Part shown: piece by piece, positions 3,328 to 58,789 of the stretch
How positions within the stretch are numbered: position 1 is the first letter of the stretch
Layout: each line of letters opens with the position of its first letter
Virus record (IMG/VR): IMGVR_UViG_3300027759_000073
Span: 14,559 to 78,558 of that record
Origin: a virus
DNA: 64,000 bases
Strand: one strand, 5' to 3'
Translations under genes and position numbers: made by a program
The notes under the pieces: generated by a model
What the model saw: only the letters and a program-made list of their open reading frames with translations
What the model was told of the DNA's origin: nothing
Databases searched by the model: none

Positions 3328-3394
3328 AAAACTATTTTTTCACACTATTTAACTCCGCGCAAACGAAATTAGTATAAATGCAAATTACAAACGA

Positions 3395-4032: not shown

Positions 4033-4065
4033 GCGGGTAACTATACACACTATTCGGGTATAAAG

Positions 4066-4093
4066 CAAACGACGGCCCGAAGGCCGTCGTTTG
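4066..4093 (-). terminator. Hairpin terminator after major tail gene
   Basis: CAAACGACGGCC-TTCG-GGCCGTCGTTTG on the minus strand: 12-bp stem with cUUCGg tetraloop. Confidence 0.8.
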
Positions 4094-4120
4094 TCCCAAG
4101 GAGGAGTTAGATTAAATTAA

Positions 4121-4678: not shown

Positions 4679-4787
4679 TTCTGGACTCCTTTTTCCTTGT
4701 TCTATGGATAATTGTACTGATTTGTCTGTTTAAGTGTGCGAGGGTATGGACGAAATAATACTATATTTTCAGCCCATACCCAGACAC

Positions 4788-5360: not shown

Positions 5361-5566
5361 TATTTCTTTGCCTCTTGCTTTGCTGCGAAGAATGATGCAA
5401 CGGTTGGGTCACCAATCTTTGTTGATGCCATTGCGAGAACTGCTGCTACTAGTGGCATTGCAAGTGCGGTGAGCATTGGGTCAATGCTGTACTTATCACA
5501 CAAGTAAACAACGACGCCCATTGCGCCACCCTTTGCGATTCCGTCTGCTGCTGTTGTTGCTTTCAT
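5360..5566 (-). CDS. Putative holin
   Basis: 68 aa, hydrophobic segments and basic C-terminus; overlaps the endolysin start. Confidence 0.6.
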   Translation of the reverse strand: MKATTAADGIAKGGAMGVVVYLCDKYSIDPMLTALAMPLVAAVLAMASTKIGDPTVASFFAAKQEAKK

Positions 5567-5624
5567 GATTGCTCCTTTTAACTCGGTTGCCCAAAGTCTT
5601 GTCGAAGCAAGGTGTATATATAGG

Positions 5625-10936: not shown

Positions 10937-10984
10937 ACCCGCTATACAATAAAACTATTTTATAAGATAGTTCTTATAGCCTGT

Positions 10985-12232: not shown

Positions 12233-12936
12233 TTTTCAACCTGAACCCAAATCCAGTTTTTGTGGTTATCGCCAGGACCAGTTTCCCTAATATCAAATTT
12301 AAAGTTTTTGAAACCTATTTTTCCAACTAGGTCGTCAAATACTGTTTGCTCATCTTGGATACTTACATCTGAGTGACCGTTCGTGCTGCCAGCATCATAA
12401 TTATTGTCGTAGTAGCCAGCAGTAGGTATCTCGCCCTTCCCGCCATAACCCATTTGGAAACATAACTTCCCGCCTGGCTTGAGAACCCTGTAGATATCCT
12501 TCAAGATATCAAACCTAATTTTATGCACGCAAATATGCTGGAAGCAGATTACGGCAAAAACCACATCGTAAACATCGTCGGCAATAGCAGAGAGATTGTC
12601 TCCGCTAGTTACATATAGGTTTGGCTCGGCAATGTTATTTGCCTTGACATTGAGACGCGCCCTTTCAATATTCACATGAGAAATATCTATCCCGTCAACC
12701 CGAGCAAAACGATTTGAGAACTTGACCAGGTTTCTTCCAGGTCCACATCCGTACTCAAGTGCTACAAGGCCATTTGTGTCAAAGTCCTTGAACAAGAAAT
12801 TGTCATAGTCTGACCAGTTGTTGTGAGCATCGTATGAGCCAACTACTGGGTCCCTGAAATCAAGTGACCACTTTGCTGCATATTCGTCGTAATACGAATT
12901 CTGCATTCCCAAGTAATCGTCTTTGTCCTTGCTCAT
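12229..12936 (-). CDS. Class I SAM-dependent methyltransferase
   Basis: LEYGCGPG, VDGIDIS, YDVVFAVICFQH and RVLKPGG motifs. Confidence 0.9.
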   Translation of the reverse strand: MSKDKDDYLGMQNSYYDEYAAKWSLDFRDPVVGSYDAHNNWSDYDNFLFKDFDTNGLVALEYGCGPGRNLVKFSNRFARVDGIDISHVNIERARLNVKANNIAEPNLYVTSGDNLSAIADDVYDVVFAVICFQHICVHKIRFDILKDIYRVLKPGGKLCFQMGYGGKGEIPTAGYYDNNYDAGSTNGHSDVSIQDEQTVFDDLVGKIGFKNFKFDIRETGPGDNHKNWIWVQVEK

Positions 12937-14306
12937 TTGTTGTTCTCCAAGTAGTAGTTCAGGTCTTCAGGTGTTCCGATTCCCCACATCTTGGGAACTT
13001 CCTTAATCCTAATCTTTTTATCATCCTGAATCGCTTCATTGAATACAGGGCAAACATAGAACTCATTATTTGTTCTAATGTCTTTTTCAATCATCTGGTT
13101 TGCATATTTGACATAGTCAGAACCGTGCTTCCAGTAATAGATTCCAACGGTGGCATTATCTGAGATTGGGTTCTTCTCTGCCACTTCTGACACGAAGCCA
13201 TCATCTCCAAGTTTTGCATAGGACCATTTTGGATGGGTTGCCTTGAATGTCAGGATTCCGCCGTCAATCTCGTCAGCACCAAACGCATAGAGGCATTCAT
13301 TGCTATCCCATTCAACGACTTGGTCGGAGTTTGCCATTAGCAATGGCGCGTCAGTATCGATGAGGTGCGAAGCCAGCAGGGTTGTGCAGGCGGCCCCTTC
13401 TGTCATTCCATCAACCAAGACAATGTCGCATCCTGGCTTTATGAGGTTGAGAACCTGCTTTAGGTTGTATTTCTCGTAGTGGTCTTTTTGAACCAAGAAA
13501 ATAAAGTGCGCGTCAACATTGAGGTTGTCAACAACTACCTGAATCATTGGCTTGCCATTTACCTCGATAAGCGGCTTTGGGAATGTGTAACCAGCCTGAG
13601 CAAAGCGTGAGCCAGCGCCTGCCATTGGTATCAAAACATTCATCTTTTCGTTCCTCCAAGCGACTGGCTTTTTGCCACGGGTTTCAATTTCATCAACGAA
13701 CTTCATCAAACTATTTTTATTAAGGTCGTCGGCATTCTTGATTGCAAAAAGATTGGCGCCAGAACTAAGTGCGCCTTCCCTTCCAATATGTGAATCCTCA
13801 ACAATAATGGTGTTTGCTGGACTTGAATCTAAAGAGACTATGCACTGCCAGTACATCTCTGGGTGCGGCTTGTGGTGCTTTACATCCTCGTTGCTCATGA
13901 TGTAACTGACATATTTGAGCACACCAATTGCATCAAGCGCCGTGATTACAGTATCCCTAATCGCGTTACTTGCCACAGCAATCTTCCATCCGCGCTCCTT
14001 AAGGGTCTGCATGATGTCAATAGCGACATAGTTCTTTGGAAACTCGGACAAGATTTTTAGCGTTGCTTCTTGCTTGTCTTCCCAAACTTGCTGGTGATTC
14101 GATTCTGGAAGTCCCTTGTTTTGACTCAACATCTTTAACTTTGTAGTTGTGCCAAGTCCGTCGTACATTGACAGATGCTCATCGCGGGAAATCACATACT
14201 TTGGGTCAATCCTGCTGAGGGCGATATTTAGGGAGTCATAATGCACATCCCTAGATTCAATTAGAACACCATCAAGGTCAAAGATTACAAGGAAGTTACT
14301 TTTCAT
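12933..14306 (-). CDS. Fusion: HAD phosphatase plus NTP transferase (nucleotidyltransferase)
   Basis: FDLDGVL, VASN, KPHPE and IVEDS (HAD); IPMAGAGSRF...PKPLI (NTP transferase). Likely start MKSNF. Confidence 0.88.
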   Translation of the reverse strand: MKSNFLVIFDLDGVLIESRDVHYDSLNIALSRIDPKYVISRDEHLSMYDGLGTTTKLKMLSQNKGLPESNHQQVWEDKQEATLKILSEFPKNYVAIDIMQTLKERGWKIAVASNAIRDTVITALDAIGVLKYVSYIMSNEDVKHHKPHPEMYWQCIVSLDSSPANTIIVEDSHIGREGALSSGANLFAIKNADDLNKNSLMKFVDEIETRGKKPVAWRNEKMNVLIPMAGAGSRFAQAGYTFPKPLIEVNGKPMIQVVVDNLNVDAHFIFLVQKDHYEKYNLKQVLNLIKPGCDIVLVDGMTEGAACTTLLASHLIDTDAPLLMANSDQVVEWDSNECLYAFGADEIDGGILTFKATHPKWSYAKLGDDGFVSEVAEKNPISDNATVGIYYWKHGSDYVKYANQMIEKDIRTNNEFYVCPVFNEAIQDDKKIRIKEVPKMWGIGTPEDLNYYLENNK

Positions 14307-14961
14307 GTGGGTTTGGTCCCGCATGTCTGTGCCACTTATTGTGACGAACAATACTCTTACCATTGCACTTCATCAGATATTTATCCCTCACGCGCATTGA
14401 CCACTCTACATCTTCTTCTTCGTTCCATCCGCGAGACTCGTCCAGCGGCTCTTCCAGCATCACATGCTTTTTTAGCATGAAGAACCCGCCAGAGATATAC
14501 ATATATTGCGTTTGAGTCCAGTCGTTATAGTCAAGCGACCAGGCCCTACCGTGTCCAGGCTTGTCCCATAATGACCAATCCATTGGATTGCGTGCTCCAT
14601 TGATTAGGTACTGGGGGCATGAGCAGATTTCCCAATCTGTCCCGAACTTCTTAAACTCTTCATACCAAGCACTATCAAAAATGTGGTAATCATGCATTAA
14701 CACAATGTTTTCGTACTTCGCGTTCTGAACAAGAATGTTCTTTTTGCGGGTAATCCATCGCGGCTTTATTGACTCGTCAAAGTCAATCTTTACGATGTCA
14801 TCGCCTTCAATCCCAGACGAATCTCCGCCGCCTACAAAAAGCATTTCGTACTCTGGCACTCCAAGACTTCGGATGTTTTCAACAATTTCAGAAAGTCTAT
14901 TTTTATCTTCGTAAACAGTGATTATCCCAAAGGTCCACGGAATGTCATGCATTCTCCGCAC
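14296..14961 (-). CDS. Glycosyltransferase (GT-A/GT2-like)
   Basis: TFGIIT, ITRKKN, VLMHDY, YISGGFF, LDE...EEDVEWS motifs. Confidence 0.75.
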   Translation of the reverse strand: MRRMHDIPWTFGIITVYEDKNRLSEIVENIRSLGVPEYEMLFVGGGDSSGIEGDDIVKIDFDESIKPRWITRKKNILVQNAKYENIVLMHDYHIFDSAWYEEFKKFGTDWEICSCPQYLINGARNPMDWSLWDKPGHGRAWSLDYNDWTQTQYMYISGGFFMLKKHVMLEEPLDESRGWNEEEDVEWSMRVRDKYLMKCNGKSIVRHNKWHRHAGPNPHEK

Positions 14962-16069
14962 CTTCTAGTATTGAGCGATAAACATGATTCCATTCAGGTC
15001 CACGCTTTTCCATAGTGAATAGGTTCTTTACATTTGCAAGATTCTCTTCAACTTCGTCTTTGCGCATTGATGGGTCCATAAGTTCGTTTAAGTGGTAATT
15101 CCACTCACTCTTGTTTCGCGCCACTCTTCCAACTCCATAACTTGCCATAAATTCATACTCGGGGGACCAGGATGAAATAAACGGAATGCCAGCGGCGACA
15201 TACTCAAGTCCCTTGATAAAAGACTTTGCATGATTGAATTGAACATCGTTCAATGGAACAATTCCAATATCAATTGGTGCAAAGAGTTTTGGGTAATCTA
15301 GAATTGGGACCAGTGGGAGCGTCGTAGTGGAATCCGCACTAATCCCAAGTTGGTCGGCGGCGTGTGCTGCATTTGTCTGCAAGTGCCCAGAATGATGAAA
15401 CTTTAGACCGTTGCTATTTATAAATGACCCCACAGAATCTGCCACCGATTCAAGGTCACTTGAGCGCCAAGGGGTAGCCCCAACCCAGCCAATTGTTGGC
15501 TTATCAACAAAGTTGACTTTGTTTCTCTTCCACCTATCAAGGTCAATGCCGTTTCGCACCATGAAGACATTGTCATTAAATTTTGAATAGTAATCGCCGA
15601 GGAATGGGGTTGACACCACAATGGCGTCGGCAAGAGCGATTATTTTGTTATAGATATCTCTGTTATTCTCTGGGCTTTTCTCTGGGTCTGTAACATCGTA
15701 AGCACGGTTTGTCTTTTCTAGACCGTCATGCCAGTCGTCAATATCCACGACAATAATCTGCCCCAGTGCCTTTGCTTTGTGCATCTCTTCCAGAACTCTC
15801 TGATGCATAATGAGTTTAAAAACAATTATATCCCAACCGTGGATTGCCTTTTCGTCCTCAACCATTAATCCGAATCCATGCGCTTCGTTAAATCCAGGGA
15901 AACCCATACCAGTACCCCACTGGTGCTTCTTTAGTTCCCTTGATGGAAGAAGGCAGCGATACCATCCGCAACCATTGGGTTGAAGCGGCTTTGTTCCCCA
16001 AGACCAGTCAAATGTCAAAAAAGAGATATTTGGGTTCTTTTCCATTTTTCTTCCTGTATTGTCTTCCAA
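14945..16069 (-). CDS. Glycosyltransferase (GT-B/GT4-like)
   Basis: YRCLLP, DIDD, VRNGID, IGWVG, DIGIVPL..FN.AKS.IK.LEY.AAGIP motifs. Confidence 0.85.
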   Translation of the reverse strand: MEDNTGRKMEKNPNISFLTFDWSWGTKPLQPNGCGWYRCLLPSRELKKHQWGTGMGFPGFNEAHGFGLMVEDEKAIHGWDIIVFKLIMHQRVLEEMHKAKALGQIIVVDIDDWHDGLEKTNRAYDVTDPEKSPENNRDIYNKIIALADAIVVSTPFLGDYYSKFNDNVFMVRNGIDLDRWKRNKVNFVDKPTIGWVGATPWRSSDLESVADSVGSFINSNGLKFHHSGHLQTNAAHAADQLGISADSTTTLPLVPILDYPKLFAPIDIGIVPLNDVQFNHAKSFIKGLEYVAAGIPFISSWSPEYEFMASYGVGRVARNKSEWNYHLNELMDPSMRKDEVEENLANVKNLFTMEKRGPEWNHVYRSILEGAENA

Positions 16070-16131
16070 GGTATGCGGCGCGATTCAACGCTACATGATA
16101 ATAACACACCCGATTGGTTAACGAAAAACCA

Positions 16132-16599
16132 CTAAGAGATATCAGTGTATTTTATAGAGTCTTTTTTTCTTTTGCTTTTATTGTAGGCAGAAATGAACTC
16201 TGGTGTACCTATTACATTTTGTCCGCCATCAACTTCATATAGCAGATTATATGAATTTTCTAGGGCAAAAAGTATAATCCAACTTAGTGTTGAAGCATTC
16301 ATTGGTTTGCCCGACTCAAGTACCGACATATACGAAATATCATCTAATCCTGGGTATGCAATTATCACATTAGATAATTCTGGTTTTAGCCACTCTGGAA
16401 TGCGTGGGTCTATTAGCCATCCACACTTAAATGCTCTGCACATCTCTGGTCTTTCTTCATGGATGGTGCAACCGACACCCTTGTCGACATAGTGGCAAGG
16501 TCTCCCATTATAGAAAACATGACCGTTTATCTCTCCAGAAAAGTACCCTTCACAGCACCTTGTGCATGTTCCGCATGACCTATTCAACTGGCTCTCCAA
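16132..16599 (-). CDS. YkgJ-like cysteine-cluster (Zn/Fe-S) protein
   Basis: CGTCTRCC...C......CTIHEERPEMCRAFKC motif. Confidence 0.75.
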   Translation of the reverse strand: MESQLNRSCGTCTRCCEGYFSGEINGHVFYNGRPCHYVDKGVGCTIHEERPEMCRAFKCGWLIDPRIPEWLKPELSNVIIAYPGLDDISYMSVLESGKPMNASTLSWIILFALENSYNLLYEVDGGQNVIGTPEFISAYNKSKRKKDSIKYTDIS

Positions 16600-16623
16600 T
16601 TTTAAATATTTTTGGGTTATGCA

Positions 16624-17385
16624 TTATTCGGATTGCGTCTCAACAATGTTATCTTTTATTTCGCGTAATATTTGATTCCGCAAACCCGAACGCCTAAATA
16701 TCTCATACTTTTCCGTCAATTTTGAAAATCTTGGCAGTGGGTTCAACTGAACCAAGGAAAGCGCTATCGTGCTGAGTCTTTTTGTTACCTGATAACGATG
16801 TAGTCTTATCCTTTTATCAGTATGAAACTCAATATACATAAGTGGCTCATCCTGGTTTATTTGCAACTCATTAATCCCATCCCAAAGATTGAACTCGGCA
16901 TTAAATGGTCTATACCATTTACCAATGTCAAAACGGCCAGGAACTAGCGAGCCATATTTGCTGCTTTCAACATTGTGAAAGTACGGAGATGTCATGGATG
17001 CCATGACACTTTCATCTGAAAAAAGTAATAGCGAATACTCAAAATTTACAAGCATATTATTCTTTAAAGTTGGCTGATGCAAGACTGAACTTGGTGTCTG
17101 CAGTATTTCTGGAATATCGTAAAAAACTTTGTTATCAACATATGTTGTATGATTTTTTACCATATTGTTAAAAACAAAAATATTCTTCATCTTGCTTGAC
17201 ACAGCAGGGCATTTAATGAATGTATCTCGCTGCTGATTACCAGCGTAGTTTTCCACACATTGGCTGTATAAAGAATTTGGTGATGGGTACAGGTGATTTA
17301 GGTCAAAGGCTAATGTTTGGTTCCAGTAAGGAGCCCAATATATGTCAATATATTTACTGTCATCGTTTGTTTTGTATTCATACAT
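16624..17385 (-). CDS. Hypothetical enzyme-like protein, distantly like 18532 and 24821
   Basis: KCPA motif early; PG.FD and EPLMYIEF late. Confidence 0.55.
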   Translation of the reverse strand: MYEYKTNDDSKYIDIYWAPYWNQTLAFDLNHLYPSPNSLYSQCVENYAGNQQRDTFIKCPAVSSKMKNIFVFNNMVKNHTTYVDNKVFYDIPEILQTPSSVLHQPTLKNNMLVNFEYSLLLFSDESVMASMTSPYFHNVESSKYGSLVPGRFDIGKWYRPFNAEFNLWDGINELQINQDEPLMYIEFHTDKRIRLHRYQVTKRLSTIALSLVQLNPLPRFSKLTEKYEIFRRSGLRNQILREIKDNIVETQSE

Positions 17386-18115
17386 TTAAAATGTTATCCA
17401 GTTCCTCATTTGATACTTCTCGTGGGATTATCTCTGTCTGCATTGTATTGGGTGATTCATGGTCTTGGGTGAATTCATCACAGTGAATAAATGAACTAAT
17501 TATCCATTTATCCCCAGAAATCGGAACAAGCCCAGCGTGCTGATGCGTCCACGATGCTGGGAATACCGCGATTCTTCCAGACACCGCATTTATTGATACA
17601 TCATGGTCGATAAACCCAGTTCCGCCACCCTTTTCTACTGTATTTAAATATATAATTACTCCAAGAACGCGCTTATTTACTGGGTGCTCCGTCCAAGGAG
17701 AGCCATCATGGTGGATTCTGTAAAACCCATTATTTTTCACATAATGCTGAAGTCTAAATCCAGTGTTATATAAAACAGGTGACTGTTGCAAGACTGGGAA
17801 TTCTTCAATATATAAAGCCATTGCTGATGACAATGCTTCTTGGATTTCAAAATAGTTTTTATTGAGCGACAAAGAATAAATGCCCATTGACTCATATGTT
17901 CCTGGATGAAAGTGGAAATCCATCGACGATTTTATATTTGGGTTATACCCACCAATTGTCGGCCCGTTAGAAAAAAACTGACCGTAATTTTTTATGCATT
18001 CTTGGATTATCTCATCACAGCATTGTTTTGTTATCAGGTCATCAATAAAGGCAATATGCCCAGATTTTTCTCCTGCGTATTTAAGCATATGAGCCAATCT
18101 CTGATTCTTCCCCAT
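17378..18115 (-). CDS. 2OG-Fe(II) oxygenase (prolyl-hydroxylase-like)
   Basis: HHD...RVL..IIYLN..GG.T.F...FP..W.H.H...KWI: HxD...H facial triad. Confidence 0.88.
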   Translation of the reverse strand: MGKNQRLAHMLKYAGEKSGHIAFIDDLITKQCCDEIIQECIKNYGQFFSNGPTIGGYNPNIKSSMDFHFHPGTYESMGIYSLSLNKNYFEIQEALSSAMALYIEEFPVLQQSPVLYNTGFRLQHYVKNNGFYRIHHDGSPWTEHPVNKRVLGVIIYLNTVEKGGGTGFIDHDVSINAVSGRIAVFPASWTHQHAGLVPISGDKWIISSFIHCDEFTQDHESPNTMQTEIIPREVSNEELDNILNV

Positions 18116-18539
18116 TTGAAACTGAAAAATTTACCTCTGTAATCTTTATGGACTCCAGAAATACAGAAATTGAATAGTATCCCTCTGACTCAAAAAATGC
18201 AGGTAGCGCGCAGTGATGCAGGTCGTGTTTAATTACATCCATCTTGAATGTTTTTCTAATAAGAGCATTATCCATAGAAAGAAAAAAATCAAGTTTTGAG
18301 CAGTCTACGAAATCGTCATAGTAATTGAATGACATCGACCTGTTTGGTTTTATAACTGGTGGGAATGGCAAAAATCCAGAGTATATGGGTATTAAAATAA
18401 CGCTAACTTTATCTCTATCAAATTCCATTCCAGTCGTTCGCTCGGAGTCGCCAATCTGAATTGGCAAAGACCACTCCTTTGCAATTAATTCAGCCTCTTC
18501 AATATTTTCAACTGACGGACAAAATACAACCCTATCCAT
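18081..18539 (-). CDS. Hypothetical protein
   Basis: 152 aa ORF overlapping both neighbours. Confidence 0.6.
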   Translation of the reverse strand: MDRVVFCPSVENIEEAELIAKEWSLPIQIGDSERTTGMEFDRDKVSVILIPIYSGFLPFPPVIKPNRSMSFNYYDDFVDCSKLDFFLSMDNALIRKTFKMDVIKHDLHHCALPAFFESEGYYSISVFLESIKITEVNFSVSNGEESEIGSYA

Positions 18540-19389
18540 TGTCGCCTCCTATTTTTTTATCTACCCTGTTTTGCTCATGCTTATATGCGCCTTCCCACGA
18601 GACTCGGCGATGAATATTGTCAAAACCAAGGTTATTCAGCAATTTGTAAATCCCAGAATCGCCTTTAATCAATTCAGAATTTTTTATTACATCTGCTCTC
18701 TTGAAGGGTATGGCGTGGAACATTGGTGTTCCTTCCGCGATTGAGAATTCAGAAGTGCTTGTAATATTTAGAACGATATTGCAGTGGTGGTAGTAATCAG
18801 TGTTTACAACACCAGCCATTACATGGTAGTTATCATTTGGCTCCCACTGTGGATGTATAAAAAGTGTGGAGTACCCAGGGGCAGTCTTAAAAAGCCACGG
18901 GTTAGTCAGTTTCAAGTATGATGACTCCTCGCGACCTTTAATCGAGGCTACTGGGCACTTTCCAGCCTGTTCCGCTGGAAATTGGTTTCCCATAAGTTCG
19001 TTATGAGACATTATTTGAGCAAACTCTTCATTGCTTAAGAATTCAGCACCGTATAAATCTGGGTCAAGAATGTCATACTTTGCGTCCCAGTTTTTATGAA
19101 GTTTATTTAGTGGTGTCCTTACATCCAACTTTGCCCACAGCGGAACAGTGTATCCGCCACGAATATAGTCGCTGAGTCCGAAGCACCTCTTTAGACCGCT
19201 AGTTCCGCCAGCGATTTCCTTATACCAATCTGGGGTTTTTTTCCTATTCTCAAATACCTCAACCTTTGGATGCCAAAGTGTATTTGATACAGGAACTGCT
19301 AGTAGTTCGTATGGTTTTGGTACTGGTATTTCTGAAAAAATATCAGCCTTTACTACACTACCTTTTTTTGAAAATAGACGCATGGTCAA
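18532..19389 (-). CDS. Conserved phage hypothetical (possibly DUF6065-like)
   Basis: PDWYK, KRC.G..D...GY..PLW, TAPGYS.LF..P, GVVNTD and GTP....IPFKR; paralog of 24821..25549. Confidence 0.65.
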   Translation of the reverse strand: MTMRLFSKKGSVVKADIFSEIPVPKPYELLAVPVSNTLWHPKVEVFENRKKTPDWYKEIAGGTSGLKRCFGLSDYIRGGYTVPLWAKLDVRTPLNKLHKNWDAKYDILDPDLYGAEFLSNEEFAQIMSHNELMGNQFPAEQAGKCPVASIKGREESSYLKLTNPWLFKTAPGYSTLFIHPQWEPNDNYHVMAGVVNTDYYHHCNIVLNITSTSEFSIAEGTPMFHAIPFKRADVIKNSELIKGDSGIYKLLNNLGFDNIHRRVSWEGAYKHEQNRVDKKIGGDNG

Positions 19390-20827
19390 CCAATGTTTCC
19401 TTTAGTGCATTTGTTTTTAATTCTGCAAATATACGGGCTGCCTTTTCTCTTGAGCCATAGGCATTTAATTCCCTTGTTGCTATCTCCCTAGATACTAGCC
19501 CTTGTCCTTGAGCAACATGCCAAAAATGAGCACTATGAAATACTTCATAGCCGAATATTGGTGTGTCATACGACTGTGGGCAGCGCTCTTTCCATAAATC
19601 TATCAATGTGCTTAATAATTCTGGCTTTTCTGCATTTTGTTGTTCCCTCCACATTTCTGTGTCAGACCTGTCAGAAATATAGTGCATTGCGACCATCGTT
19701 ACTAGGTTCTCCATAAGCAGCGCTGTTTGCTTATTGTGCTGTTCAATAACCGCCTTTGAACCAGGGACATATGCCCCTATAACCGATACCAGCATCCTGG
19801 CCTGCTGAATAGATGTGGCAATTGAGGTTGCTTCTAATGGCTCAAGGAATGATGAGGATAGACCAACGGCAGCACAATTGTATGCCATTGCTGTCTTGTA
19901 GTATCCAGATTTAAATTTAATTATTCTTGCTGGCTGAATATCCCTGCCATGTGCGTCAGATATTTCCTTTACGGCCTGCTCGTCCGAGCAGAAATCTGAA
20001 GCAAAAACATACCCATTTCCCCTTCGCTCTTGAGTTGGTATCTCCCACATCCAGCCATTTGGCATTGCCCTTGCCCTTGTGTATGGCCTGATTTGACCAG
20101 ACTCATCAGACTCTGTCTGAAATACTGCAGCAGAATCGCATGGCAAAAATTTTCTATATGAGTAAAAGTCGGAGTCGTTGTCAACAAGTTTGCCCATTAG
20201 GGCACGGTGAAATCCAGATGAGTCAATGAAGAAATCTGCTGCTACTTCAGTTTTATTCTGCAATATGACTGACTCGATATTCCCATTCTCTGAGTTGCGA
20301 GTTATATCCTCAACTTCTCCATCTATAAATTTGATTCCTCTTGATTGTGATACATCTTTCAAGTATGTATTGAGTTTAAAAGTATCAAAGTGGAACTGAT
20401 TCACAGCATTATGTGGACTTTGCTTATTCAACGGAATTTTATTATTGTACAAATGACTTATCATTGCATTTGTTAGCAACATATTGTTTTCTATAGCAAA
20501 TGCGTAGTTCCCAGCAAAGTAGTGCGGACCTACCTCTCCACCACTAACGCTGTGGAAATAATCTGGGGTATGTGTTGTCCATCCCTCAAACCTTATGCCG
20601 TATTTATGCGTTGCTGCACAACGGTCAACCATCTCATCAACTGATATTCCGTGTTTATCTTGGAAAAAAATACGCCAGTGCTCAGTTGAGCCTTCGCCAA
20701 CTCCGATAATCCCAATTTTCTCCGAGGACACAACAGTAATTTCGTGGTATGGAAGGTGCCCTTTTAAAATTATTGCAGAGACAAGTCCAGATGTTCCTGA
20801 ACCAACAATGCAAATGTGCTTTTTCAT
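19358..20827 (-). CDS. Flavin-dependent (tryptophan-type) halogenase
   Basis: GSGTSG FAD motif, IGVGEGS, catalytic-Lys region ATHKYGI, WMWEIP (WxWxIP), FLEPLEATSI. Likely start MKKHI. Confidence 0.9.
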   Translation of the reverse strand: MKKHICIVGSGTSGLVSAIILKGHLPYHEITVVSSEKIGIIGVGEGSTEHWRIFFQDKHGISVDEMVDRCAATHKYGIRFEGWTTHTPDYFHSVSGGEVGPHYFAGNYAFAIENNMLLTNAMISHLYNNKIPLNKQSPHNAVNQFHFDTFKLNTYLKDVSQSRGIKFIDGEVEDITRNSENGNIESVILQNKTEVAADFFIDSSGFHRALMGKLVDNDSDFYSYRKFLPCDSAAVFQTESDESGQIRPYTRARAMPNGWMWEIPTQERRGNGYVFASDFCSDEQAVKEISDAHGRDIQPARIIKFKSGYYKTAMAYNCAAVGLSSSFLEPLEATSIATSIQQARMLVSVIGAYVPGSKAVIEQHNKQTALLMENLVTMVAMHYISDRSDTEMWREQQNAEKPELLSTLIDLWKERCPQSYDTPIFGYEVFHSAHFWHVAQGQGLVSREIATRELNAYGSREKAARIFAELKTNALKETLVDHASIFKKR

Positions 20828-20828
20828 T

Positions 20829-21434
20829 TCATTCAAACCATGAAACAAATGAATAACGAACCGTATCATCGCTAATACCAGTTGGATTTACATGGTGATA
20901 ATAAGGAAAATTAGATGGGAATAGGATAATGCTTCCAGCCTTTGGCTTTACTGTAACCCCAATCAATGGAAAGACAATCTCCCCACCAGTAAAATCATCA
21001 TTTAAAAATCCAATAATACTCAACACCCTTTTGTTGTCTGGATGGTGGTCAATGTGGCCTTTATACTCCGCTCCGCGACCATACTTGAGAACCCTAAATC
21101 CCTCATCTTGCTGCAAATTTAACGAATACATTGTACGATAATGCCAAATTGCCTGTTCTAGATTCTCTCGTATGTTCAACCAGGAATCAGAAAGTGGTTT
21201 CATTCTTTCGACAGTCATGAGTTCTTTGTCGAGTTGGAGCGGGCTTAATTCGCAACCCAAAGAAGAGCGATAGTCAGTTACAAACTGGTTATTATTAGAA
21301 CCAGTTCTAGTTTGATACCAATTTAAATATCCCCAATCACGCTTGCATTCTTCTTCTAGTAAGTCAATAAAATTTTCTGTTTTGAAGACTCTGTCATACT
21401 GAACAATACATGTTCCAAGTTGCTCGTGTTTCAT
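20829..21434 (-). CDS. 2OG-Fe(II) oxygenase (prolyl 4-hydroxylase-like)
   Basis: HID...LNDDFTGGE..FP...FPSNFPYYHHV...RYS. Start is 6 nt after TACTAT (leaderless). Confidence 0.9.
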   Translation of the reverse strand: MKHEQLGTCIVQYDRVFKTENFIDLLEEECKRDWGYLNWYQTRTGSNNNQFVTDYRSSLGCELSPLQLDKELMTVERMKPLSDSWLNIRENLEQAIWHYRTMYSLNLQQDEGFRVLKYGRGAEYKGHIDHHPDNKRVLSIIGFLNDDFTGGEIVFPLIGVTVKPKAGSIILFPSNFPYYHHVNPTGISDDTVRYSFVSWFE

Positions 21435-21490
21435 AAGAATATAGTATCACTAATCTCTGCAATGTCAATGATTAAATTATTAGAAATTTA

Positions 21491-22723
21491 TCATCCATCA
21501 ATGTCTTGCACGAAAGTCGTATTTCCAGTTGCAATATGCGTGCTGATATTTCTGGTTAGGACTACAAGCCCACCCTGTTTTCCAGTCGCACCAGTTCCAC
21601 CCTGCGCACCAGCGTTTCCAGAAGTTCCTGGGTTTCCAGGGTTTGCCGTTCCAGCCGCGCCTCCAGGATATGTTGGGTTGTGATATTGCGTACCAGGATG
21701 TGAATAATGGAATGAACTTCCTGGGTGTGAGTGATAATAAACTGTTGCTGGGGTGTGGTGCGCGTACGCATTAACATGGTGCCAACCAGGGTTGTGCGCG
21801 CCGTATTTACCGTTATGGCTACTGCAGCAGTGGTATGAGGCTTCTGGGTTATGAGCGGCTGCGTTGTGAGCGCCTGCATGTCCAACTGGGTTGTGCCCAA
21901 CAGCGTGACCAGTTGGGTTATGTGCAGATGTTCCAGCAACAGTGGTTCCAGCATTTCCTGCGACACCAGCATTTCCAGGATTTCCCGCACCTCCTGGATT
22001 GCCTAATGAGCCAACATTTCCTGAAGTTGGTTCGCTAACAAATGTTCCCGTTCCAGTGATGGTTTTAGCAACTACTACAACGACTCCGCCACCTTGTCCA
22101 CCAGTTCCGCCAGCACCGCCAGTTCCTGCCGCACCAAACGAGCCTCTTGTCCCAGCCGTTCCTGGGTTTCCAGCGGTTGCTCCACCGCTAGGCGAAGGTG
22201 CTGCACCTCCAGGGTTTGCTGTTCCGTCTGTTCCAGTGGAACCCAAGTTTCCAGCGGCTCCAGTTGACCCATCAGCACCAACCGCCCCAACATACCACCG
22301 TGACAAACTTGCACCAGATTGGACTACTCCATTTAACAGTGAATCGTAGTCCTTGACATTTCCTACTGGGAGAGTTCCAGATGAGTTTGCTGAATCAATT
22401 GAACTGCCAGCAGAGAATCCGCCAGTTCCATCTATTCTTGTTAGTACTGTTCCAGCCAGCACTGCCGTAGTTTGGGCTACTCCAGCAGGCATTCCGACTG
22501 TGCCGTTGTTGGTCAGTGTATTCTTTACGAATAATCTAAATCCGTTAGTAAATAAAGTTACAGATGCACTTACGGTCAAAGTATCATAATACATGTCTCG
22601 CGACAAAAAAGTATTTGTTGAAATTACAACAGTTCCATCAACGCCATTTCCGAATAACTTATCTGAGCCAGTCTTTTGAACTGGAGTTGTCCGTGTTGAT
22701 GAAAATCTGTTGATTAAAGGCAT
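21491..22723 (-). CDS. Gly-X-Y-rich virion fibre protein with His-rich insert
   Basis: GXY runs flank an ~85-aa segment with 18 His. N-terminal domain is paralogous to 22723..23457. Likely start MPLINRF overlaps the upstream stop. Confidence 0.7.
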   Translation of the reverse strand: MPLINRFSSTRTTPVQKTGSDKLFGNGVDGTVVISTNTFLSRDMYYDTLTVSASVTLFTNGFRLFVKNTLTNNGTVGMPAGVAQTTAVLAGTVLTRIDGTGGFSAGSSIDSANSSGTLPVGNVKDYDSLLNGVVQSGASLSRWYVGAVGADGSTGAAGNLGSTGTDGTANPGGAAPSPSGGATAGNPGTAGTRGSFGAAGTGGAGGTGGQGGGVVVVVAKTITGTGTFVSEPTSGNVGSLGNPGGAGNPGNAGVAGNAGTTVAGTSAHNPTGHAVGHNPVGHAGAHNAAAHNPEASYHCCSSHNGKYGAHNPGWHHVNAYAHHTPATVYYHSHPGSSFHYSHPGTQYHNPTYPGGAAGTANPGNPGTSGNAGAQGGTGATGKQGGLVVLTRNISTHIATGNTTFVQDIDG

Positions 22724-23457
22724 TACGCCACCTGCATGTAATTCACTGTTCCAGCGGAACAACCAGTGCCGCCAGTAACATCTGTTGAAACGGAACTATT
22801 TAGCACCGTTGCAGAAGATACTACCAAAATAACACCGCCACCGCCACCACCAGCACCTGCGGTTCCTGGGGCTTTGAAATATGCGGTTCCAGATGAAACG
22901 GTTATATAACGAGCAGAAATAAGTACCACTCCACCGCCTGCTCCAGATGCTCCACCAGCACCACCGCGAAGGAATGTTGGAGTTGTGCTAGATGCAGTTA
23001 CTGCCCATCCACGAATAGCCTGCAGCGGTTGCTGGTAGTACTGTGAGCCGCCAAGAGCCGCCGTTGGTGCAGTTGCAGTCTGTGTCGCGCTCGCGCCACC
23101 AAGGCTATGTGTTACAGCAACTGTTGCTGCTCCACCCTGCGCTACTGTTCCAGCAGTTGAATATCCTGTTGAGTGACCAATTACTGAGTTTGGACCAAGA
23201 GTCAGCGTATTTCTAACAAATATACGGTATCCGTTAGGAGTTAATTGAATACCATCAGCAATCGTAAGATTGTTATAGAACTTGTCCGAAGTAAGGGATG
23301 TATTCGATGAGATTGTTGCGTCTCCATCACTTCCACTGCCATACACTGGGTCTGGCAAGTTTAGGTATGTGGCAGTAGCAACAAGTGCGCTGGAAATAGA
23401 CGAAGTTGCTTCAGCCGTTGATATTCCAGTTCCGTTCACGCGAACGAACGCAGCCAT
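22723..23457 (-). CDS. Glycine-rich virion structural protein
   Basis: YGSGSDG...YNNLTI...NGYRIFV.NTL; GGGGGGVILV. Confidence 0.65.
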   Translation of the reverse strand: MAAFVRVNGTGISTAEATSSISSALVATATYLNLPDPVYGSGSDGDATISSNTSLTSDKFYNNLTIADGIQLTPNGYRIFVRNTLTLGPNSVIGHSTGYSTAGTVAQGGAATVAVTHSLGGASATQTATAPTAALGGSQYYQQPLQAIRGWAVTASSTTPTFLRGGAGGASGAGGGVVLISARYITVSSGTAYFKAPGTAGAGGGGGGVILVVSSATVLNSSVSTDVTGGTGCSAGTVNYMQVA

Positions 23458-23819
23458 TACGACTCCTCAATACCAGTAACAATAATATTTACTGCGGTGT
23501 TTGCACTTGCATAACCAATAAGTTGGTCGCTGTTTGTTGCGTTTGCAGTACTTCCGTTATTTGTAAAAACAAGGTTTGTTGAAAGTAAAACTGTTTCGTT
23601 CGCAGCAAGCGAAAGTGCATTTGTGAAGTTCTGAGTTGAAGCCTGAGCCACATTTAATGGCTTTAGAACAAGCGTTACCGTTACCGCGCTGCCAGTCGTA
23701 TTGCACAGAATAATCTGCTTTGCAATAGCCGTGGTACTAATCGGTGTGGTATAAAGAACCGTTGATGTAGTTGTCGTTAGTTGGGAAGGCCCAACAAGAC
23801 GCTTCTGTGTTAATGCCAT
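23457..23819 (-). CDS. Small beta-rich fibre-associated protein
   Basis: LYTTP...KQIILCN...SLAANET...TGIE; coupled to fibre genes. Confidence 0.6.
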   Translation of the reverse strand: MALTQKRLVGPSQLTTTTSTVLYTTPISTTAIAKQIILCNTTGSAVTVTLVLKPLNVAQASTQNFTNALSLAANETVLLSTNLVFTNNGSTANATNSDQLIGYASANTAVNIIVTGIEES

Positions 23820-24618: not shown

Positions 24619-24828
24619 TCATTGCTGGTCGGCAGATAGTCCACTTGTATTTCTTCCAACAAAAGTATCACCCGCAATATTATACCGTGACGAGGCAATT
24701 TGGTTAGAGCCTGATATTGGGCGGGATTGGCTGTATATCCATTCACCGAGCGTGTCGGCTCTAGCGACGGTAGACCATAATGCCAGTAAGGCTACTGGAA
24801 CAAAAATTAACCAACGACTTTTAATCAT
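24619..24828 (-). pseudogene. Probable truncated secreted-protein remnant
   Basis: Clear signal peptide MIKSRWLIFVPVALLALWSTVARA|D, but only 69 aa in total. Confidence 0.4.
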
Positions 24829-25549
24829 ACTTTTTTGGAACCCAATATTTTTGAGAATACCCACCAATTAACTTGCTAAAAATTTTGTGCATCCTAAACA
24901 GGTTAGTTTTTTCGTTTAATTTTATTCTTTCACTTTTCCAAATTTCTCTCTTAAAAGGAATTATTTGAAGTATTGGAGTTCCTGCTGGTATTAATCCAGT
25001 AAAACCTTTTTTAATAAAGAAAGGAATACTTCCAGTTCCAGCAAACAAACCAGTATCTGTATCAATCACTCCAGCAGTAGTAACAAAAGGAGATTCAGTA
25101 TCATTCAAAGGTTGCTGAATCAAACACGAATAACCCTTTGGGGTAATTGGGGCATAATACATTTGCCAAGCAAACTCGTTTTCATGGCAACCAATTGGGG
25201 TTGGAATACTTTTTCTGGTTGCAACTATAAACGGATTAGGTTGACAGGCATACACCCATTCAATTTCATCTCCAACTTCTGTAATATAAATATCAGTCCA
25301 AGTTTTATATATGTAACCAGCCGTCATTGCATCCCTAAAAGGAACACACGCTTTAACGGTTAAATCAAGTCTGCCATTAAACATTTTTCTAGGAAGGTTT
25401 ACGGCACGCAATCTTTTGTACCAAGATGGAATAGATTTTGTTGCTGATTTTGGTACTTCTACAACATCCCAAGCATCATTGTTTGTTGATTCAAATGTAA
25501 TTAATTTTTCTTTTAGAAAGAAATCCAAGAAATAGTTGCTTCGTCCCAT
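24821..25549 (-). CDS. Conserved phage hypothetical, paralog of 18532..19389
   Basis: IPSWYK, KACVPFRDAMTAGY, TPKGYSCL, GVIDTD, GTPILQIIPFKR. Confidence 0.7.
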   Translation of the reverse strand: MGRSNYFLDFFLKEKLITFESTNNDAWDVVEVPKSATKSIPSWYKRLRAVNLPRKMFNGRLDLTVKACVPFRDAMTAGYIYKTWTDIYITEVGDEIEWVYACQPNPFIVATRKSIPTPIGCHENEFAWQMYYAPITPKGYSCLIQQPLNDTESPFVTTAGVIDTDTGLFAGTGSIPFFIKKGFTGLIPAGTPILQIIPFKREIWKSERIKLNEKTNLFRMHKIFSKLIGGYSQKYWVPKKYD

Positions 25550-25868: not shown

Positions 25869-27146
25869 TTATACCAGTGTAATTACGAAGTTAGATGAGC
25901 CAGTAAAAGTGTGAATGGTATATCCACCACTGGTAGATGTTGAACCACCAGTAACAGACATACCAGCAGCAGCAGATGTCAAGTAGGAAACATAAACCAC
26001 ACCTTGAACTCCAGCACCTCCACTGCCAGAAGCGTATGCACCGCCACCTCCACCAGCACCATATTGTGACCCATTTGCGCCGTTGCCGTTCACTGCTGCG
26101 CCACCATTACCGCCACCGCCTGAACCACCTGCACCGCCAGTTCCAGAACCACCACCACCTGCACCACCAAATACGGTTGAACCTACGCCGTTAATAGAAC
26201 AGGCAGTTCCAGCACCACCTGCTGCACCTTGTGCGCCACCGTCACCAGATTTACCGCCAGTACCACCAGTATTTGTAGTACCAGAACCGCCAGCGCCACC
26301 GTTACCGCCGACATTTCCAAATGCGTTAGCACCAGTACCGCCACCATTCCCAACAACAGTTGAACCAGTAAAGTACGAAACAGATTGACCAGAAACGCCA
26401 CCAACAGTAATCGTGTACGAACCAGCAGCCTGAGCAGCAGGTTGAACTACACCACTTCCAGCACCACCACCGCCTCCACCGCCGCCGCCTGAACCAGTAC
26501 CACTACCGCCAGAACCACCACCGCCAACAACAAGTGTTTGAACGGTAAGAGTTGAAGCAAGTGTTGTGAAAGCAACACCAGCCGATTGTGAACCAACACC
26601 ATAAGCGTTCTTAGGTCGCATATAAACTGTATATCCAGTAGATGCCGTCAAACCAGTCAAGTTCTTAGGACTTGACGAAACACCAGCATCAACCCAACTA
26701 GACAAATAATAATCGTAACCAGTTATCGCACCACCACCAGCAGTAGTTGTAAAGTTCACTGTTGCTGTAGTTCTTGAAATACTGCTTACAGAAGTAATTG
26801 TTGTTGTGCCAGTCGGGATTCCATCGGTTGTAAACGAAACACCAGTTGAAGCAGGACCAGAACCAACAGCATTAACTGCACGCAAATAAACCGTGTATGC
26901 AGTGTTCTGTGTTAAACCACTTACTGTTACTGGACTGGTTGCATCAGCAGGGGATAGTGCTGTCCATGAAGAGTTGTTGAACGAGTATTCGTAGTTCGTA
27001 ATTTCCGAACCACCGTCGTCAGATGGAACAGTAAAAGAAATAGAAACACTTGTATTGATTGGAATAGCACTTAAAGAGGTTGGGGCTGTTTTGGGTGCGG
27101 TTGCACCCTTCATACTCCCAATCATTCCCGATATTGCACCAGTCAT
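25869..27146 (-). CDS. FN3-repeat plus glycine-rich tail fibre/receptor-binding protein
   Basis: Two FN3 domains (DGGSEITNYEYS, GL...T.YTVY.R..N..G); C-terminal Gly-rich domain ending GGYTIHTFT. Confidence 0.8.
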   Translation of the reverse strand: MTGAISGMIGSMKGATAPKTAPTSLSAIPINTSVSISFTVPSDDGGSEITNYEYSFNNSSWTALSPADATSPVTVSGLTQNTAYTVYLRAVNAVGSGPASTGVSFTTDGIPTGTTTITSVSSISRTTATVNFTTTAGGGAITGYDYYLSSWVDAGVSSSPKNLTGLTASTGYTVYMRPKNAYGVGSQSAGVAFTTLASTLTVQTLVVGGGGSGGSGTGSGGGGGGGGGAGSGVVQPAAQAAGSYTITVGGVSGQSVSYFTGSTVVGNGGGTGANAFGNVGGNGGAGGSGTTNTGGTGGKSGDGGAQGAAGGAGTACSINGVGSTVFGGAGGGGSGTGGAGGSGGGGNGGAAVNGNGANGSQYGAGGGGGAYASGSGGAGVQGVVYVSYLTSAAAGMSVTGGSTSTSGGYTIHTFTGSSNFVITLV

Positions 27147-58664: not shown

Positions 58665-58789
58665 TTTTTTTCCTTTTCAGTTTGGTTTGGTTTGGTTTGG
58701 TGAGTGTTGCCACTCTTACAATGCCCGCACTAGTCGGGCACTCTAAGAGTGTCACGGCGCAAGGGGTACGCCGTGACACACTCACTAGA

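What the first reader, a model, noticed from the sequence alone, without database searches (positions are those of the whole stretch)
21674..21922. 18-histidine insert with HNP repeats and a central HCCSSH between two GXY arms
Seen: HNPTGHAVGHNPVGHAGAHNAAAHNPEASYHCCSSHNGKYGAHNPGWHHVNAYAHHTPATVYYHSHPGSSFHYSHPGTQYHNP has five HNP motifs, seven Tyr and one Trp, flanked by GNPG-type repeats. The upstream paralog 22723..23457 shares the N-terminal domain but lacks this insert. Established: His-coordinated iron occurs in the T4 gp37 fibre tip. Inference: an out-and-back needle that binds metals and may mimic a siderophore for receptor binding; it is the likely substrate of the downstream enzymes.
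Basis: partly seen in the sequence, partly recalled or inferred. Interest (0 to 1): 0.7.

Follow-up and report, generated by a model that had tools for sequence, protein, structure and literature searches.

The report
Histidine-rich loop of phage fibre protein
An uncultured freshwater phage carries a surface-fibre-type protein with a loop that is one-fifth histidine, and this protein type always travels with a halogenase and collagen-type hydroxylases, so the loop is a concrete but unproven candidate for what viral halogenases modify.

Summary
Window 21674..21922 (-) encodes the quoted 83 residues: 18 His, five HNP, seven Tyr, one Trp, one CC pair (binomial P about 1e-14). It lies in a 410-aa protein between two Gly-X-Y arms, and the upstream paralog lacks it.

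It is not a private insert. About 158 of 179 distinct relatives carry a His cluster at this position, with 10 to 66 His. The loop is conserved among close relatives (dN/dS about 0.03) and is remodelled by length changes at long range.

The AlphaFold model gives a beta-helix core with confident Gly arms. The loop itself is unmodelled (pLDDT below 50).

In every His-rich relative with 6 kb or more of downstream sequence (55 of 55; about 39 non-redundant), a flavin halogenase, a prolyl-4-hydroxylase-like oxygenase and a dUTPase-fold protein lie nearby. Eight relatives without His-rich loops lack the halogenase.

So the "substrate of the downstream enzymes" reading is well supported by comparative genomics, but no chemistry was measured. 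Metal binding is plausible and untested. A T4 gp37-type iron needle is not supported for this member (one HxH), and siderophore mimicry has no support.

This scan had already noted the same cassette in at least 22 other genomes. The enzyme trio was described in cyanophage Syn9 (Iyer et al. 2010).

The parts
21491..22723 (-). Gene for the 410-aa His-rich fibre/adhesin-type protein (P0002). The ATG at 22723 overlaps the paralog's stop (TAATG).
   Evidence: 203 relatives; 273 related loci in IMG/VR
22289..22723 (-). N-terminal conserved domain (residues 1-145), shared with the paralog and with 1365 representative clusters.
   Evidence: pLDDT 60-89
22088..22288 (-). Gly-rich arm 1 (residues 146-212), Gly-X-Y-like.
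   Evidence: pLDDT 59-92
22031..22087 (-). Beta-strand block 1 (GGGVVVVVAKTITGTGTFVSE, residues 213-231).
   Evidence: strands 214-223 and 227-230 in the model; 84-95% identical among near relatives
21923..22030 (-). Gly-X-Y arm 2 (residues 232-267) leading into the insert; contains two GNPG sites.
   Evidence: weak Pfam Collagen match at 235-259, E 0.4
21674..21922 (-). His-rich loop (residues 268-350): 18 His, 5 HNP, HCCSSH, two SHPG, 7 Tyr, 1 Trp.
   Evidence: pLDDT below 50; dN/dS about 0.03 against L004; 18 of 18 listed strain differences at third codon positions
21575..21673 (-). Gly-X-Y arm 3 (residues 351-383) leading back from the insert; starts at the near-invariant TYPGG junction.
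21494..21574 (-). Beta-strand block 2 (GGLVVLTRNISTHIATGNTTFVQDIDG, residues 384-410).
   Evidence: strands 385-393 and 402-407
22723..23457 (-). Paralog (244 aa): same N-terminal domain and Gly/beta core, no His loop; always immediately upstream.
23457..23819 (-). 120-aa protein (phrog_20100), a constant upstream member of the module.
21441..21468 (-). Promoter-like site TTGACA-16-TACTAT in the 56-bp gap. Its -10 box ends 6 nt before the ATG of the oxygenase gene.
   Evidence: consensus match only
20829..21434 (-). 2OG-Fe(II) oxygenase, prolyl-4-hydroxylase-like (P4H_a).
   Evidence: PF13640 E 8e-14; best solved relative is B. anthracis P4H 5hv0, E 1.7e-6; HxD...H kept in 60 of 61 relatives
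19358..20869 (-). Flavin-dependent halogenase.
   Evidence: PF04820 E 8e-98; BrvH 6frl 2e-57 and VirX1 6qgm 8e-40; GSGTSG, Lys in KYGIRFEGW, WMWEIP
18532..19389 (-). dUTPase-fold protein with an invariant Cys (phrog_7084; Syn9 gp43 family).
18081..18539 (-). 152-aa protein of unknown function, present in about half of the related cassettes.
17378..18115 (-). Second 2OG-Fe(II) oxygenase (P4H_b).
   Evidence: PF13640 E 2.5e-9

Best explanation
The 83-residue stretch is the distal variable loop of a virion-surface protein of fibre/adhesin type. The protein has an N-terminal domain and a beta-helix core closed by strands from both ends of the chain. Gly-rich arms carry the loop out and back, much as the glycine-rich motifs of T2/S16 gp38 adhesins carry their variable segments. 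The exact loop sequence is kept by selection.

The loop is most likely the substrate of the enzymes encoded directly downstream. The P4H-like oxygenase(s) would hydroxylate prolines in the many Asn-Pro(-Gly) and His-Pro-Gly sites of the loop and arms. The flavin halogenase would halogenate an electron-rich ring; Tyr or Trp is possible, but His is the only such residue common to all loops. The dUTPase-fold protein has an unknown accessory role. The finished loop, probably also able to hold metal ions, would be the part that contacts the host.

Shown here: the sequence, the family-wide module, purifying selection, the fold of the core, the enzyme families and the conserved linkage. Inferred: virion location, any modification, any metal and receptor binding.
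For: 1. Family-wide module: 158 of 179 distinct relatives have 10-66 clustered His at this position, and 30 of 94 further representatives do too.
2. Selection: the loop is 83-100% identical in the six closest relatives, against 55-81% for the Gly arms. Against L004 there are 40 synonymous and 16 non-synonymous differences, dN/dS about 0.03. A strain contig shows no indel in the loop, and 18 of 18 listed differences lie at third codon positions.
3. Architecture: the AlphaFold core and Gly arms reach pLDDT 70-92. Fold matches are beta-helix proteins (Z 6-8), including S16 gp38 6f45_D (Z 6.3, 119 aligned) and PP01 gp38 9v85 (Z 5.7). The gp38 domain plan is described in PMC12032242.
4. Position: the gene is the last of a run of fibre-like genes that follows head, adaptor and tail-terminator genes.
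5. Linkage: halogenase, P4H-like oxygenase and dUTPase-fold gene lie within 8 kb of every His-rich relative with 6 kb or more downstream (55 of 55; about 39 non-redundant). The set is kept when the order is rearranged (L035, L036, L069).
6. Duplication: one contig has two complete sets, with halogenases 47% and fibres 36% identical.
7. Natural controls: L065 and seven N-domain relatives without His loops have none of the enzymes. L089 is a close relative of L091 with a Cys-rich loop instead of a His-rich one; it keeps only a P4H-like gene and lacks the halogenase and dUTPase-fold genes.
8. Enzymes look active: the catalytic Lys and GxGxxG are kept in 49 of 49 halogenases, and HxD...H in 60 of 61 oxygenases.
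9. Sites: 13 of 22 Pro follow Asn (1.7 expected from composition), and there are 10 X-Pro-Gly sites, the collagen P4H motif.
10. Literature: the viral halogenase VirX1 has a large open active site and no known natural product (PMC8407142). 5-bromohistidine exists in nature (PMC8659048).
Against: No modification, metal or virion presence has been measured. No RNA run holding the stretch was listed. The loop is unmodelled (pLDDT below 50), and the fold matches to gp38 are within the noise range of the method (Z below 8). There is no sequence match to the GP38, Mtd_N or Collagen families above threshold.

The same enzyme trio in cyanophage Syn9 was read by its discoverers as a small-molecule pathway (PMC2938197, PMC7824862). 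Cyanomyovirus and pelagiphage halogenases are not next to a protein of this family. Histidine halogenation by a flavin-dependent halogenase has no precedent known to me. Nine of 158 loops have neither Trp nor Tyr, so the usual targets are not universal. Homologs of the dUTPase-fold protein sit beside thymidylate synthase in haloarchaeal viruses, which points to a nucleotide role there. The correlation between Asn-Pro count and number of oxygenase genes (rho 0.84) rests on only two changes on the tree. Synteny shows a functional link, not an enzyme-substrate relation.
Confidence: 0.5

Rival explanations
1. The loop is an unmodified metal-binding element, comparable to the His boxes of T-even fibres, that stabilises or hardens the tip. 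The neighbouring enzymes make or modify something else, such as a small molecule or a host surface polymer, and are linked only by regulation or timing.
For: 22% His with almost no charged residues will bind Zn, Ni, Cu or Fe in vitro. HxH and HH are abundant in distant relatives, up to 25 HxH. His-metal sites are established in T4 gp37 (Bartual 2010, as cited in PMC11705849). The Syn9-type enzyme array was interpreted as secondary-metabolite synthesis (PMC2938197; PMC7824862). Glycosyltransferases follow the cassette in the window.
Against: This does not explain why the halogenase is absent exactly where the loop lacks His. It also does not explain why a second fibre copy brings its own diverged enzyme set. 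The cassette contains no peptide synthetase, carrier protein or other scaffold-building gene. This member has one HxH only.
Confidence: 0.22
2. The protein is a multi-core precursor. The repeats in the loop are tailored by the enzymes and then cut out as small modified peptides, in a RiPP-like manner.
For: Distant relatives carry tandem peptide units in the loop, for example GNPHPAGHNPHVA, TPHHHG and HFSHPGNPF in several copies. The tailoring enzymes are adjacent. Peptide-acting flavin halogenases exist (own knowledge: MibH, SrpI).
Against: No protease, leader-binding domain or exporter was found in the conserved set. The loop is embedded between conserved folded segments that are needed to close the beta-helix. 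The gene sits at the end of a fibre gene run with start-stop overlap to its paralog. This member's loop is not repetitive.
Confidence: 0.07
3. The loop holds iron and mimics a ferric siderophore so that the phage docks on a siderophore receptor (Ferrojan horse idea, the first reader's reading).
For: Only the general hypothesis and the His content. HxH-iron sites in fibres are cited as its basis (PMC11705849).
Against: There is no gp37-type HxH ladder in this protein. The nearest cultured capsid relatives are phages of Actinobacteria, which have no outer-membrane TonB receptors (own knowledge); the host itself is unknown. No structural or sequence resemblance to any siderophore-binding or mimicking system was found.
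Confidence: 0.03
4. The stretch is an unconstrained low-complexity spacer with no specific role.
For: Low complexity, an unmodelled structure and large length variation at long range.
Against: Strong purifying selection on the exact sequence. Conserved entry and exit motifs (HNP..., PG..HNP-TYPGG). Strict co-inheritance with enzymes.
Confidence: 0.03

Closest known systems
gp38 adhesins of T2/S16/PP01-type phages (PDB 6f45, 9v85; Dunne et al. 2018; PMC12032242)
   Same: Same domain plan: an N-terminal domain, a beta-helix closed by N- and C-terminal strands, and conserved Gly-rich motifs that carry variable segments at the distal end. These segments are replaced in a modular way between relatives. 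Weak fold matches: Z 6.3 and 5.7. A GP38-bearing cluster is among the nearest named ESM Atlas clusters (score 0.77).
   Different: No sequence membership (no PF05268 hit). gp38 variable loops are a few residues long, whereas here there is one loop of 50-270 residues that is 20-39% His. The Gly arms are Gly-X-Y with Asn-Pro. Dedicated enzymes are encoded alongside.
His boxes / HxH iron sites of the T4 gp37 long-tail-fibre needle (Bartual et al. 2010; PMC6957217; PMC11705849)
   Same: Histidines concentrated at the distal part of a phage fibre-type protein. Distant family members are rich in HxH.
   Different: gp37 has seven spaced HxH pairs in a trimeric interdigitated needle with modest His content. 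This loop has one HxH, 22% His and HNP spacing of 4-5 residues. It sits in a protein whose single-chain AlphaFold model has a confident core (pLDDT 70-92), though its oligomeric state was not tested, and no metal site could be modelled.
Syn9-type cyanophage dioxygenase / tryptophan-halogenase / dUTPase-fold gene neighbourhood (Iyer, Abhiman, de Souza, Aravind 2010, PMC2938197)
   Same: The same three protein families side by side. Syn9 gp43 matches the window's dUTPase-fold protein (E 7e-9). In Syn9 the array also follows fibre and Gly-rich genes, and gp38 there ends in a small His/Gly segment.
   Different: In Syn9 there are ten dioxygenases, two halogenases and no protein of this family. The published reading is secondary-metabolite synthesis. 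Here the array is minimal (1-2 oxygenases, 1 halogenase) and tied one-to-one to a His-rich fibre-type gene.
Flavin-dependent halogenases BrvH (6frl) and VirX1 (6qgm)
   Same: The neighbouring enzyme is a full-length member with all motifs. Both references have no known natural substrate, and VirX1 has an open active site (PMC8407142).
   Different: 28-37% identity to cyanophage enzymes. A protein substrate has not been shown for any of them.
Collagen prolyl 4-hydroxylases, e.g. Bacillus anthracis P4H (5hv0), acting on X-Pro-Gly
   Same: The neighbouring oxygenase is closest to these. The fibre protein offers 10 X-Pro-Gly sites with Pro in the Y position of Gly-X-Y.
   Different: Similarity is weak (E 1.7e-6). 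The arms are short (8-9 triplets) and score below the Pfam Collagen threshold. The hydroxylated residue, if any, is unknown and could be Pro, Asn or His.
Nvjp-1, the Gly/His-rich jaw protein of Nereis (PMC9465683, PMC10230509): a functional analogy only
   Same: A Gly- and His-rich protein hardened by metal (Zn) coordination (abstracts only).
   Different: An animal structural material with no homology. The analogy was not tested.

Membership tests
gp38-type phage adhesin (Pfam GP38, PF05268) | Sequence match to the family profile | tested here: not met
   No Pfam hit for the protein. None of the 26 aligned relatives hit it at E up to 1. No PDB sequence match with the family profile.
gp38-type phage adhesin | Fold: beta-helix formed by N- and C-terminal strands plus a polyglycine-II sandwich | tested here: inconclusive
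   VIA-align: 6f45_D Z 6.3, rmsd 4.1, 119 aligned; 9v85_C Z 5.7. These rank among many beta-helix matches of Z 6-8, within the method's noise. Foldseek found nothing.
gp38-type phage adhesin | Conserved Gly-rich motifs alternating with variable segments | tested here: met
   Alignment A1: Gly arms and beta blocks are conserved, and the loop between arms 2 and 3 is variable in length and sequence.
T4 gp37-type His-box iron needle | Series of spaced HxH pairs | tested here: not met
   One HxH (HSH) and two HH in this loop. Distant relatives have up to 25 HxH.
T4 gp37-type His-box iron needle | Trimeric interdigitated needle with octahedral Fe2+ | not testable with these tools
   Only single-chain prediction is available. 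The loop has pLDDT below 50. There is no metal assay.
Collagen triple helix (PF01391) | Uninterrupted Gly-X-Y repeats that reach the family threshold | tested here: not met
   E 0.4, 10.9 bits against a cut-off of 27.2 for this protein. 15 of 26 relatives give weak hits, best E 6.6e-4. The arms are 8-9 triplets long.
Syn9-type dioxygenase/halogenase/dUTPase-fold neighbourhood | Co-located 2OGFeDO, Trp-halogenase-type enzyme and dUTPase-fold protein with a conserved Cys | tested here: met
   PF13640 and PF04820. dUTPase fold: the top 22 VIA matches, Z 9.2-5.4. Invariant Cys69. Syn9 gp43 E 7e-9. Description in PMC2938197.
Flavin-dependent halogenase (neighbour gene) | GxGxxG, catalytic Lys and WxWxIP | tested here: met
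   GSGTSG, KYGIRFEGW (Lys89) and WMWEIP. 49 of 49 cassette homologs keep the Lys and GxGxxG; 41 of 49 keep strict WxWxIP.
RiPP precursor | Leader/core organisation with a dedicated protease or recognition element | tested here: inconclusive
   No protease or recognition domain was found among the conserved neighbours by Pfam or PHROGs. The loop is flanked by folded conserved segments. Two neighbours remain of unknown function.

The most novel reading that the evidence does not exclude
The loop of this virion protein is enzymatically halogenated, possibly on histidine (the only electron-rich ring common to all loops), and hydroxylated by phage-encoded enzymes before assembly. This would be the first halogenated viral structural protein. 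It would give a natural protein substrate for the viral flavin-dependent halogenases (the VirX1/Syn9 type) and a new way for phages to tune or harden a receptor-binding tip.
Probability: 0.4. Interest if true: 0.85.

Novelty: new variant of a known kind. Interest (0 to 1): 0.62.

Why it matters
Viral flavin-dependent halogenases and the long arrays of 2OG oxygenases in aquatic phages have had no known natural substrate since they were noticed in 2005-2010. The only published guess is small-molecule synthesis. Here, and in dozens of relatives, the minimal enzyme set is tied one-to-one to a single protein type with an unusual, strongly selected His/Asn/Pro loop.

That turns an open question into a simple experiment: co-express a handful of genes (the fibre protein, the oxygenases, the halogenase and the dUTPase-fold protein) and weigh the product. 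If modification is found, it would add enzymatic halogenation and hydroxylation to the chemistry of virus particles. It would also give protein-acting halogenases and hydroxylases with defined recognition motifs. If it is not found, the His loop still stands as an extreme natural metal-binding module on a phage surface protein.

Tried and rejected
IMG/VR and GTDB loci were used instead.
- No DNA match to cultured phages and no tblastn match of the His-rich protein in 50,697 phage records.
- Halogenase homologs in P-SSM2, HTVC008M, S-H38 and S-PM2 are not beside a protein of this family.
- Pfam and PHROGs give nothing for the protein. A PDB profile search gives nothing, and Foldseek gives nothing.
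- The ESM Atlas gives only viral hypotheticals; Mtd_N, Collagen and GP38 clusters appear as weak leads.
- The 152-aa neighbour has only weak Ig-like/YtkA-like structural leads.
- No RNA holder was listed among public runs.
- The promoter scan found fewer sites than the shuffles (15 against 25.7), so the site before the oxygenase gene is a consensus match only.
- The correlation of Asn-Pro count with the number of oxygenase genes (rho 0.84) was rejected as evidence. The tree shows two changes of each trait and one or two independent pairs.
- DNA-level tandem repeats in the loop are weak, so recent slippage is not the source of this member's loop.
Model coordinates are not exposed, so the polyglycine-II geometry could not be checked.
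Full report
**What is there**

It holds 18 His, five HNP, seven Tyr, one Trp and a vicinal Cys pair inside HCCSSH. Only one Glu and one Lys are charged. The background His frequency is 1.8% in 14,787 residues of the window's other long ORFs. That gives a chance probability of about 1e-14, and HNP does not occur once elsewhere.

The stretch lies in ORF 21491..22762. The likely start is the ATG at 22723. It overlaps the stop of the upstream gene as TAATG and gives the 410-aa product that gene callers reported (P0002). Of its 22 prolines, 13 follow Asn (1.7 expected from composition) and 10 are X-Pro-Gly.

**Genome setting**

The window is part of a 78.5-kb IMG/VR virus record, estimated 59% complete. 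Related DNA occurs in freshwater metagenomes. The nearest cultured capsid proteins, at about 50% identity, are from phages of Actinobacteria. The genes run in this order on the minus strand:

- terminase, portal, protease, major head protein;
- head-tail adaptor, Neck1, tail terminator;
- a run of fibre-like genes, including a 1783-aa protein with Ig/FN3 repeats;
- a 120-aa gene, a 244-aa paralog, and the His-rich gene.

Virion location is therefore inferred from position only. Tube, sheath and tape-measure genes are not in the window.

**The protein family**

A search gave 203 relatives, all metagenomic and unnamed. IMG/VR holds 273 related loci. The N-terminal domain alone has 1365 representative clusters. 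Alignment of 26 relatives shows a fixed plan:

- N-terminal domain;
- Gly-rich arm;
- beta block (GGGVVVVVAKTITGTGTF);
- Gly-X-Y arm;
- His-rich loop;
- Gly-X-Y arm that starts at a near-invariant (H/N)NP-x-Y-x-GG junction;
- closing beta block.

The loop is therefore a family module, not a private insert. About 158 of 179 distinct relatives carry 10 to 66 clustered His there, at 15-39% His with very few charged residues. Of 94 further representatives, 30 do too. HNP is a trait of the nearer relatives. Distant ones use HxH and HH and often tandem peptide units. A CC dipeptide recurs in 25 loops. The upstream paralog shares the N-terminal domain and the Gly/beta core but has no loop.

**Is the loop hypervariable?**

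Not at short range. Against the six closest relatives the loop is 83-100% identical. The N-terminal domain is 83-91% identical and the Gly arms 55-81%. Against L004 the loop shows 40 synonymous and 16 non-synonymous differences. That gives dN/dS of about 0.03 with synonymous sites near saturation, compared with 0.08 for the N-terminal domain and 0.18-0.20 for the arms.

A related strain contig from a public run covers the loop without any indel. All 18 listed differences inside it fall on third codon positions (the table is truncated, so this is a sample). At long range the loop is the most divergent part (13-47% identity), mainly through length change. So it is a selected, specific sequence that is exchanged or rebuilt between lineages.

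**Structure**

AlphaFold2 with the 26-sequence alignment gave mean pLDDT 65.5. The N-terminal domain, the beta blocks and, notably, the Gly arms reach 70-92, while residues 265-349 stay below 50. Foldseek found nothing. The exhaustive aligner found beta-helix proteins at Z 6-8 (bactofilin, two-partner-secretion and autotransporter passengers). Among them are the gp38 adhesins of S16 (Z 6.3, 119 aligned) and PP01 (Z 5.7). These values are within the method's noise, so the gp38 likeness is a resemblance of plan, not a demonstrated relationship.

The published gp38 plan is an attachment domain, a beta-helix formed by both termini, and a polyglycine-II sandwich of Gly-rich motifs carrying variable loops (PMC12032242). 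It matches the order of elements here. Two alternatives remain open. No multimer prediction was available.

**The neighbours**

Directly downstream lie the following genes:

- a 2OG-Fe(II) oxygenase closest to collagen prolyl 4-hydroxylases (PF13640; B. anthracis P4H);
- a full-length flavin-dependent halogenase with GxGxxG, the catalytic Lys and WxWxIP;
- a 285-aa protein whose model (pLDDT 79.9) has a dUTPase-like fold, with the top 22 matches at Z 9.2-5.4 and then a drop to 3.8, plus an invariant Cys;
- a 152-aa unknown protein;
- a second 2OG oxygenase.

A promoter-like site sits in the 56-bp gap.

**Linkage test**

In 80 IMG/VR loci the order [120-aa gene][paralog][His-rich gene][oxygenase][halogenase][dUTPase-fold gene] recurs.

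- Every His-rich relative with at least 6 kb of downstream sequence has all three enzyme families within 8 kb (55 of 55; about 39 non-redundant). All apparent exceptions are truncated contigs.
- The set is kept when it lies upstream instead (L035, L036, L069).
- One contig has two complete sets, whose halogenases are 47% identical and whose fibre N-terminal domains are 36% identical. This argues for dedicated pairs.

Relatives without a His-rich loop behave differently:

- L065 has a globular-looking loop with 3 His in the whole protein and no enzymes in 9 kb.
- Seven more distant N-domain proteins have 3 or fewer clustered His and no enzymes within 7-8 kb.
- L089 is a close relative of L091 with the same N- and C-terminal sequences. 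Its loop is Cys-rich, and it keeps only a P4H-like gene. L091 has a His/Asn/Pro loop and carries two oxygenases, the halogenase and the dUTPase-fold gene.

These comparisons tie the halogenase to the His-rich loop type. They are few in number and are not a formal phylogenetic test. A tempting correlation between Asn-Pro count and number of oxygenase genes (rho 0.84) collapses to two changes on the tree and is not used.

**Relation to what is known**

The enzyme trio is not new. Iyer et al. 2010 described ten dioxygenases, two tryptophan halogenases and a dUTPase-fold protein with a conserved Cys in cyanophage Syn9. They read the array as secondary-metabolite synthesis. In the same paper they proposed collagen-like proteins as substrates of co-encoded dioxygenases in other bacterial operons (PMC2938197; see also PMC7824862).

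I confirmed that Syn9 gp43 is a homolog of the window's dUTPase-fold protein (E 7e-9). I also confirmed that the Syn9 array follows fibre and Gly-rich genes, one of which (gp38) ends in a small His/Gly segment. VirX1, the characterised cyanophage halogenase, has an open active site and no known natural product (PMC8407142). His-metal sites in fibres (T4 gp37) and the Ferrojan horse idea are established as structure and hypothesis respectively (PMC11705849). 5-bromohistidine occurs naturally (PMC8659048). No paper in the held library links a phage halogenase or P4H to a fibre protein.

This scan itself has noted the same cassette in at least 22 other genomes, with the same cautious reading.

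**Verdict**

The loop is the selected, lineage-specific tip of a fibre/adhesin-type protein, and it is genetically bound to a halogenase/hydroxylase set. The most likely mechanism is post-translational tailoring of the loop and arms before assembly (confidence about 0.5). Metal binding is a likely additional property. A gp37-type iron needle and siderophore mimicry are not supported. Nothing chemical has been measured, and the decisive experiment is a multi-gene co-expression followed by mass spectrometry.

Noticed in passing
window 21441-21468 (-) and 21434: The promoter-like TTGACA-16-TACTAT ends 6 nt before the ATG of the oxygenase gene, so a transcript from it would be nearly leaderless. 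That would fit an actinobacterial host, where leaderless mRNAs are common (own knowledge).
   Followed up: no
L055 and L071 (IMG/VR contigs), 191-6419 and 9980-17166: Two complete fibre-plus-enzyme cassettes lie in one phage contig. One fibre has 55 His and the other 31. Each has its own halogenase (47% identical to each other).
   Followed up: partly
L089:870-2630 against L091:8591-10054: Two closely related fibre proteins differ only in loop type. One loop is Cys-rich (4 His) and is followed by a P4H-like gene alone. The other is a His/Asn/Pro loop followed by two oxygenases, a halogenase and a dUTPase-fold gene.
   Followed up: partly
L101 (Halorubrum tailed phage 7) 5833-6723; 52 phage records: Homologs (23-28% identity) of the dUTPase-fold cassette protein occur in haloarchaeal tailed viruses beside thymidylate synthase and DNA polymerase. 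The family may have a nucleotide-related role there.
   Followed up: no
L085 (Synechococcus phage S-H38) 15781-16104 (+): An unannotated 108-codon open frame with 25 His in 60 residues lies 4.4 kb downstream of the halogenase. It may be a small His-rich gene or an off-frame artefact.
   Followed up: no
L102 (Synechococcus phage Syn9) 10344-11144 (gp38): The Gly-rich protein annotated 'tail fiber assembly' ends in a His/Gly segment (7 His in 43 residues, two HNH). It lies just upstream of the two halogenases.
   Followed up: partly
window 24821-25549 (-): A second copy of the dUTPase-fold family (24% identical to 18532-19389) follows the FN3/Gly-rich fibre gene 25869-27146, which has no His loop and no halogenase. 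The family is therefore not strictly tied to the halogenase.
   Followed up: partly
window 58000-64000: G+C rises from about 0.44 to 0.54-0.58 at the right end of the window.
   Followed up: no
His loops of the family: A vicinal Cys-Cys dipeptide recurs in 25 of 158 His-rich loops, and Cys counts are even in 52 of the 68 loops that have Cys. This suggests disulfides or a metal site.
   Followed up: no
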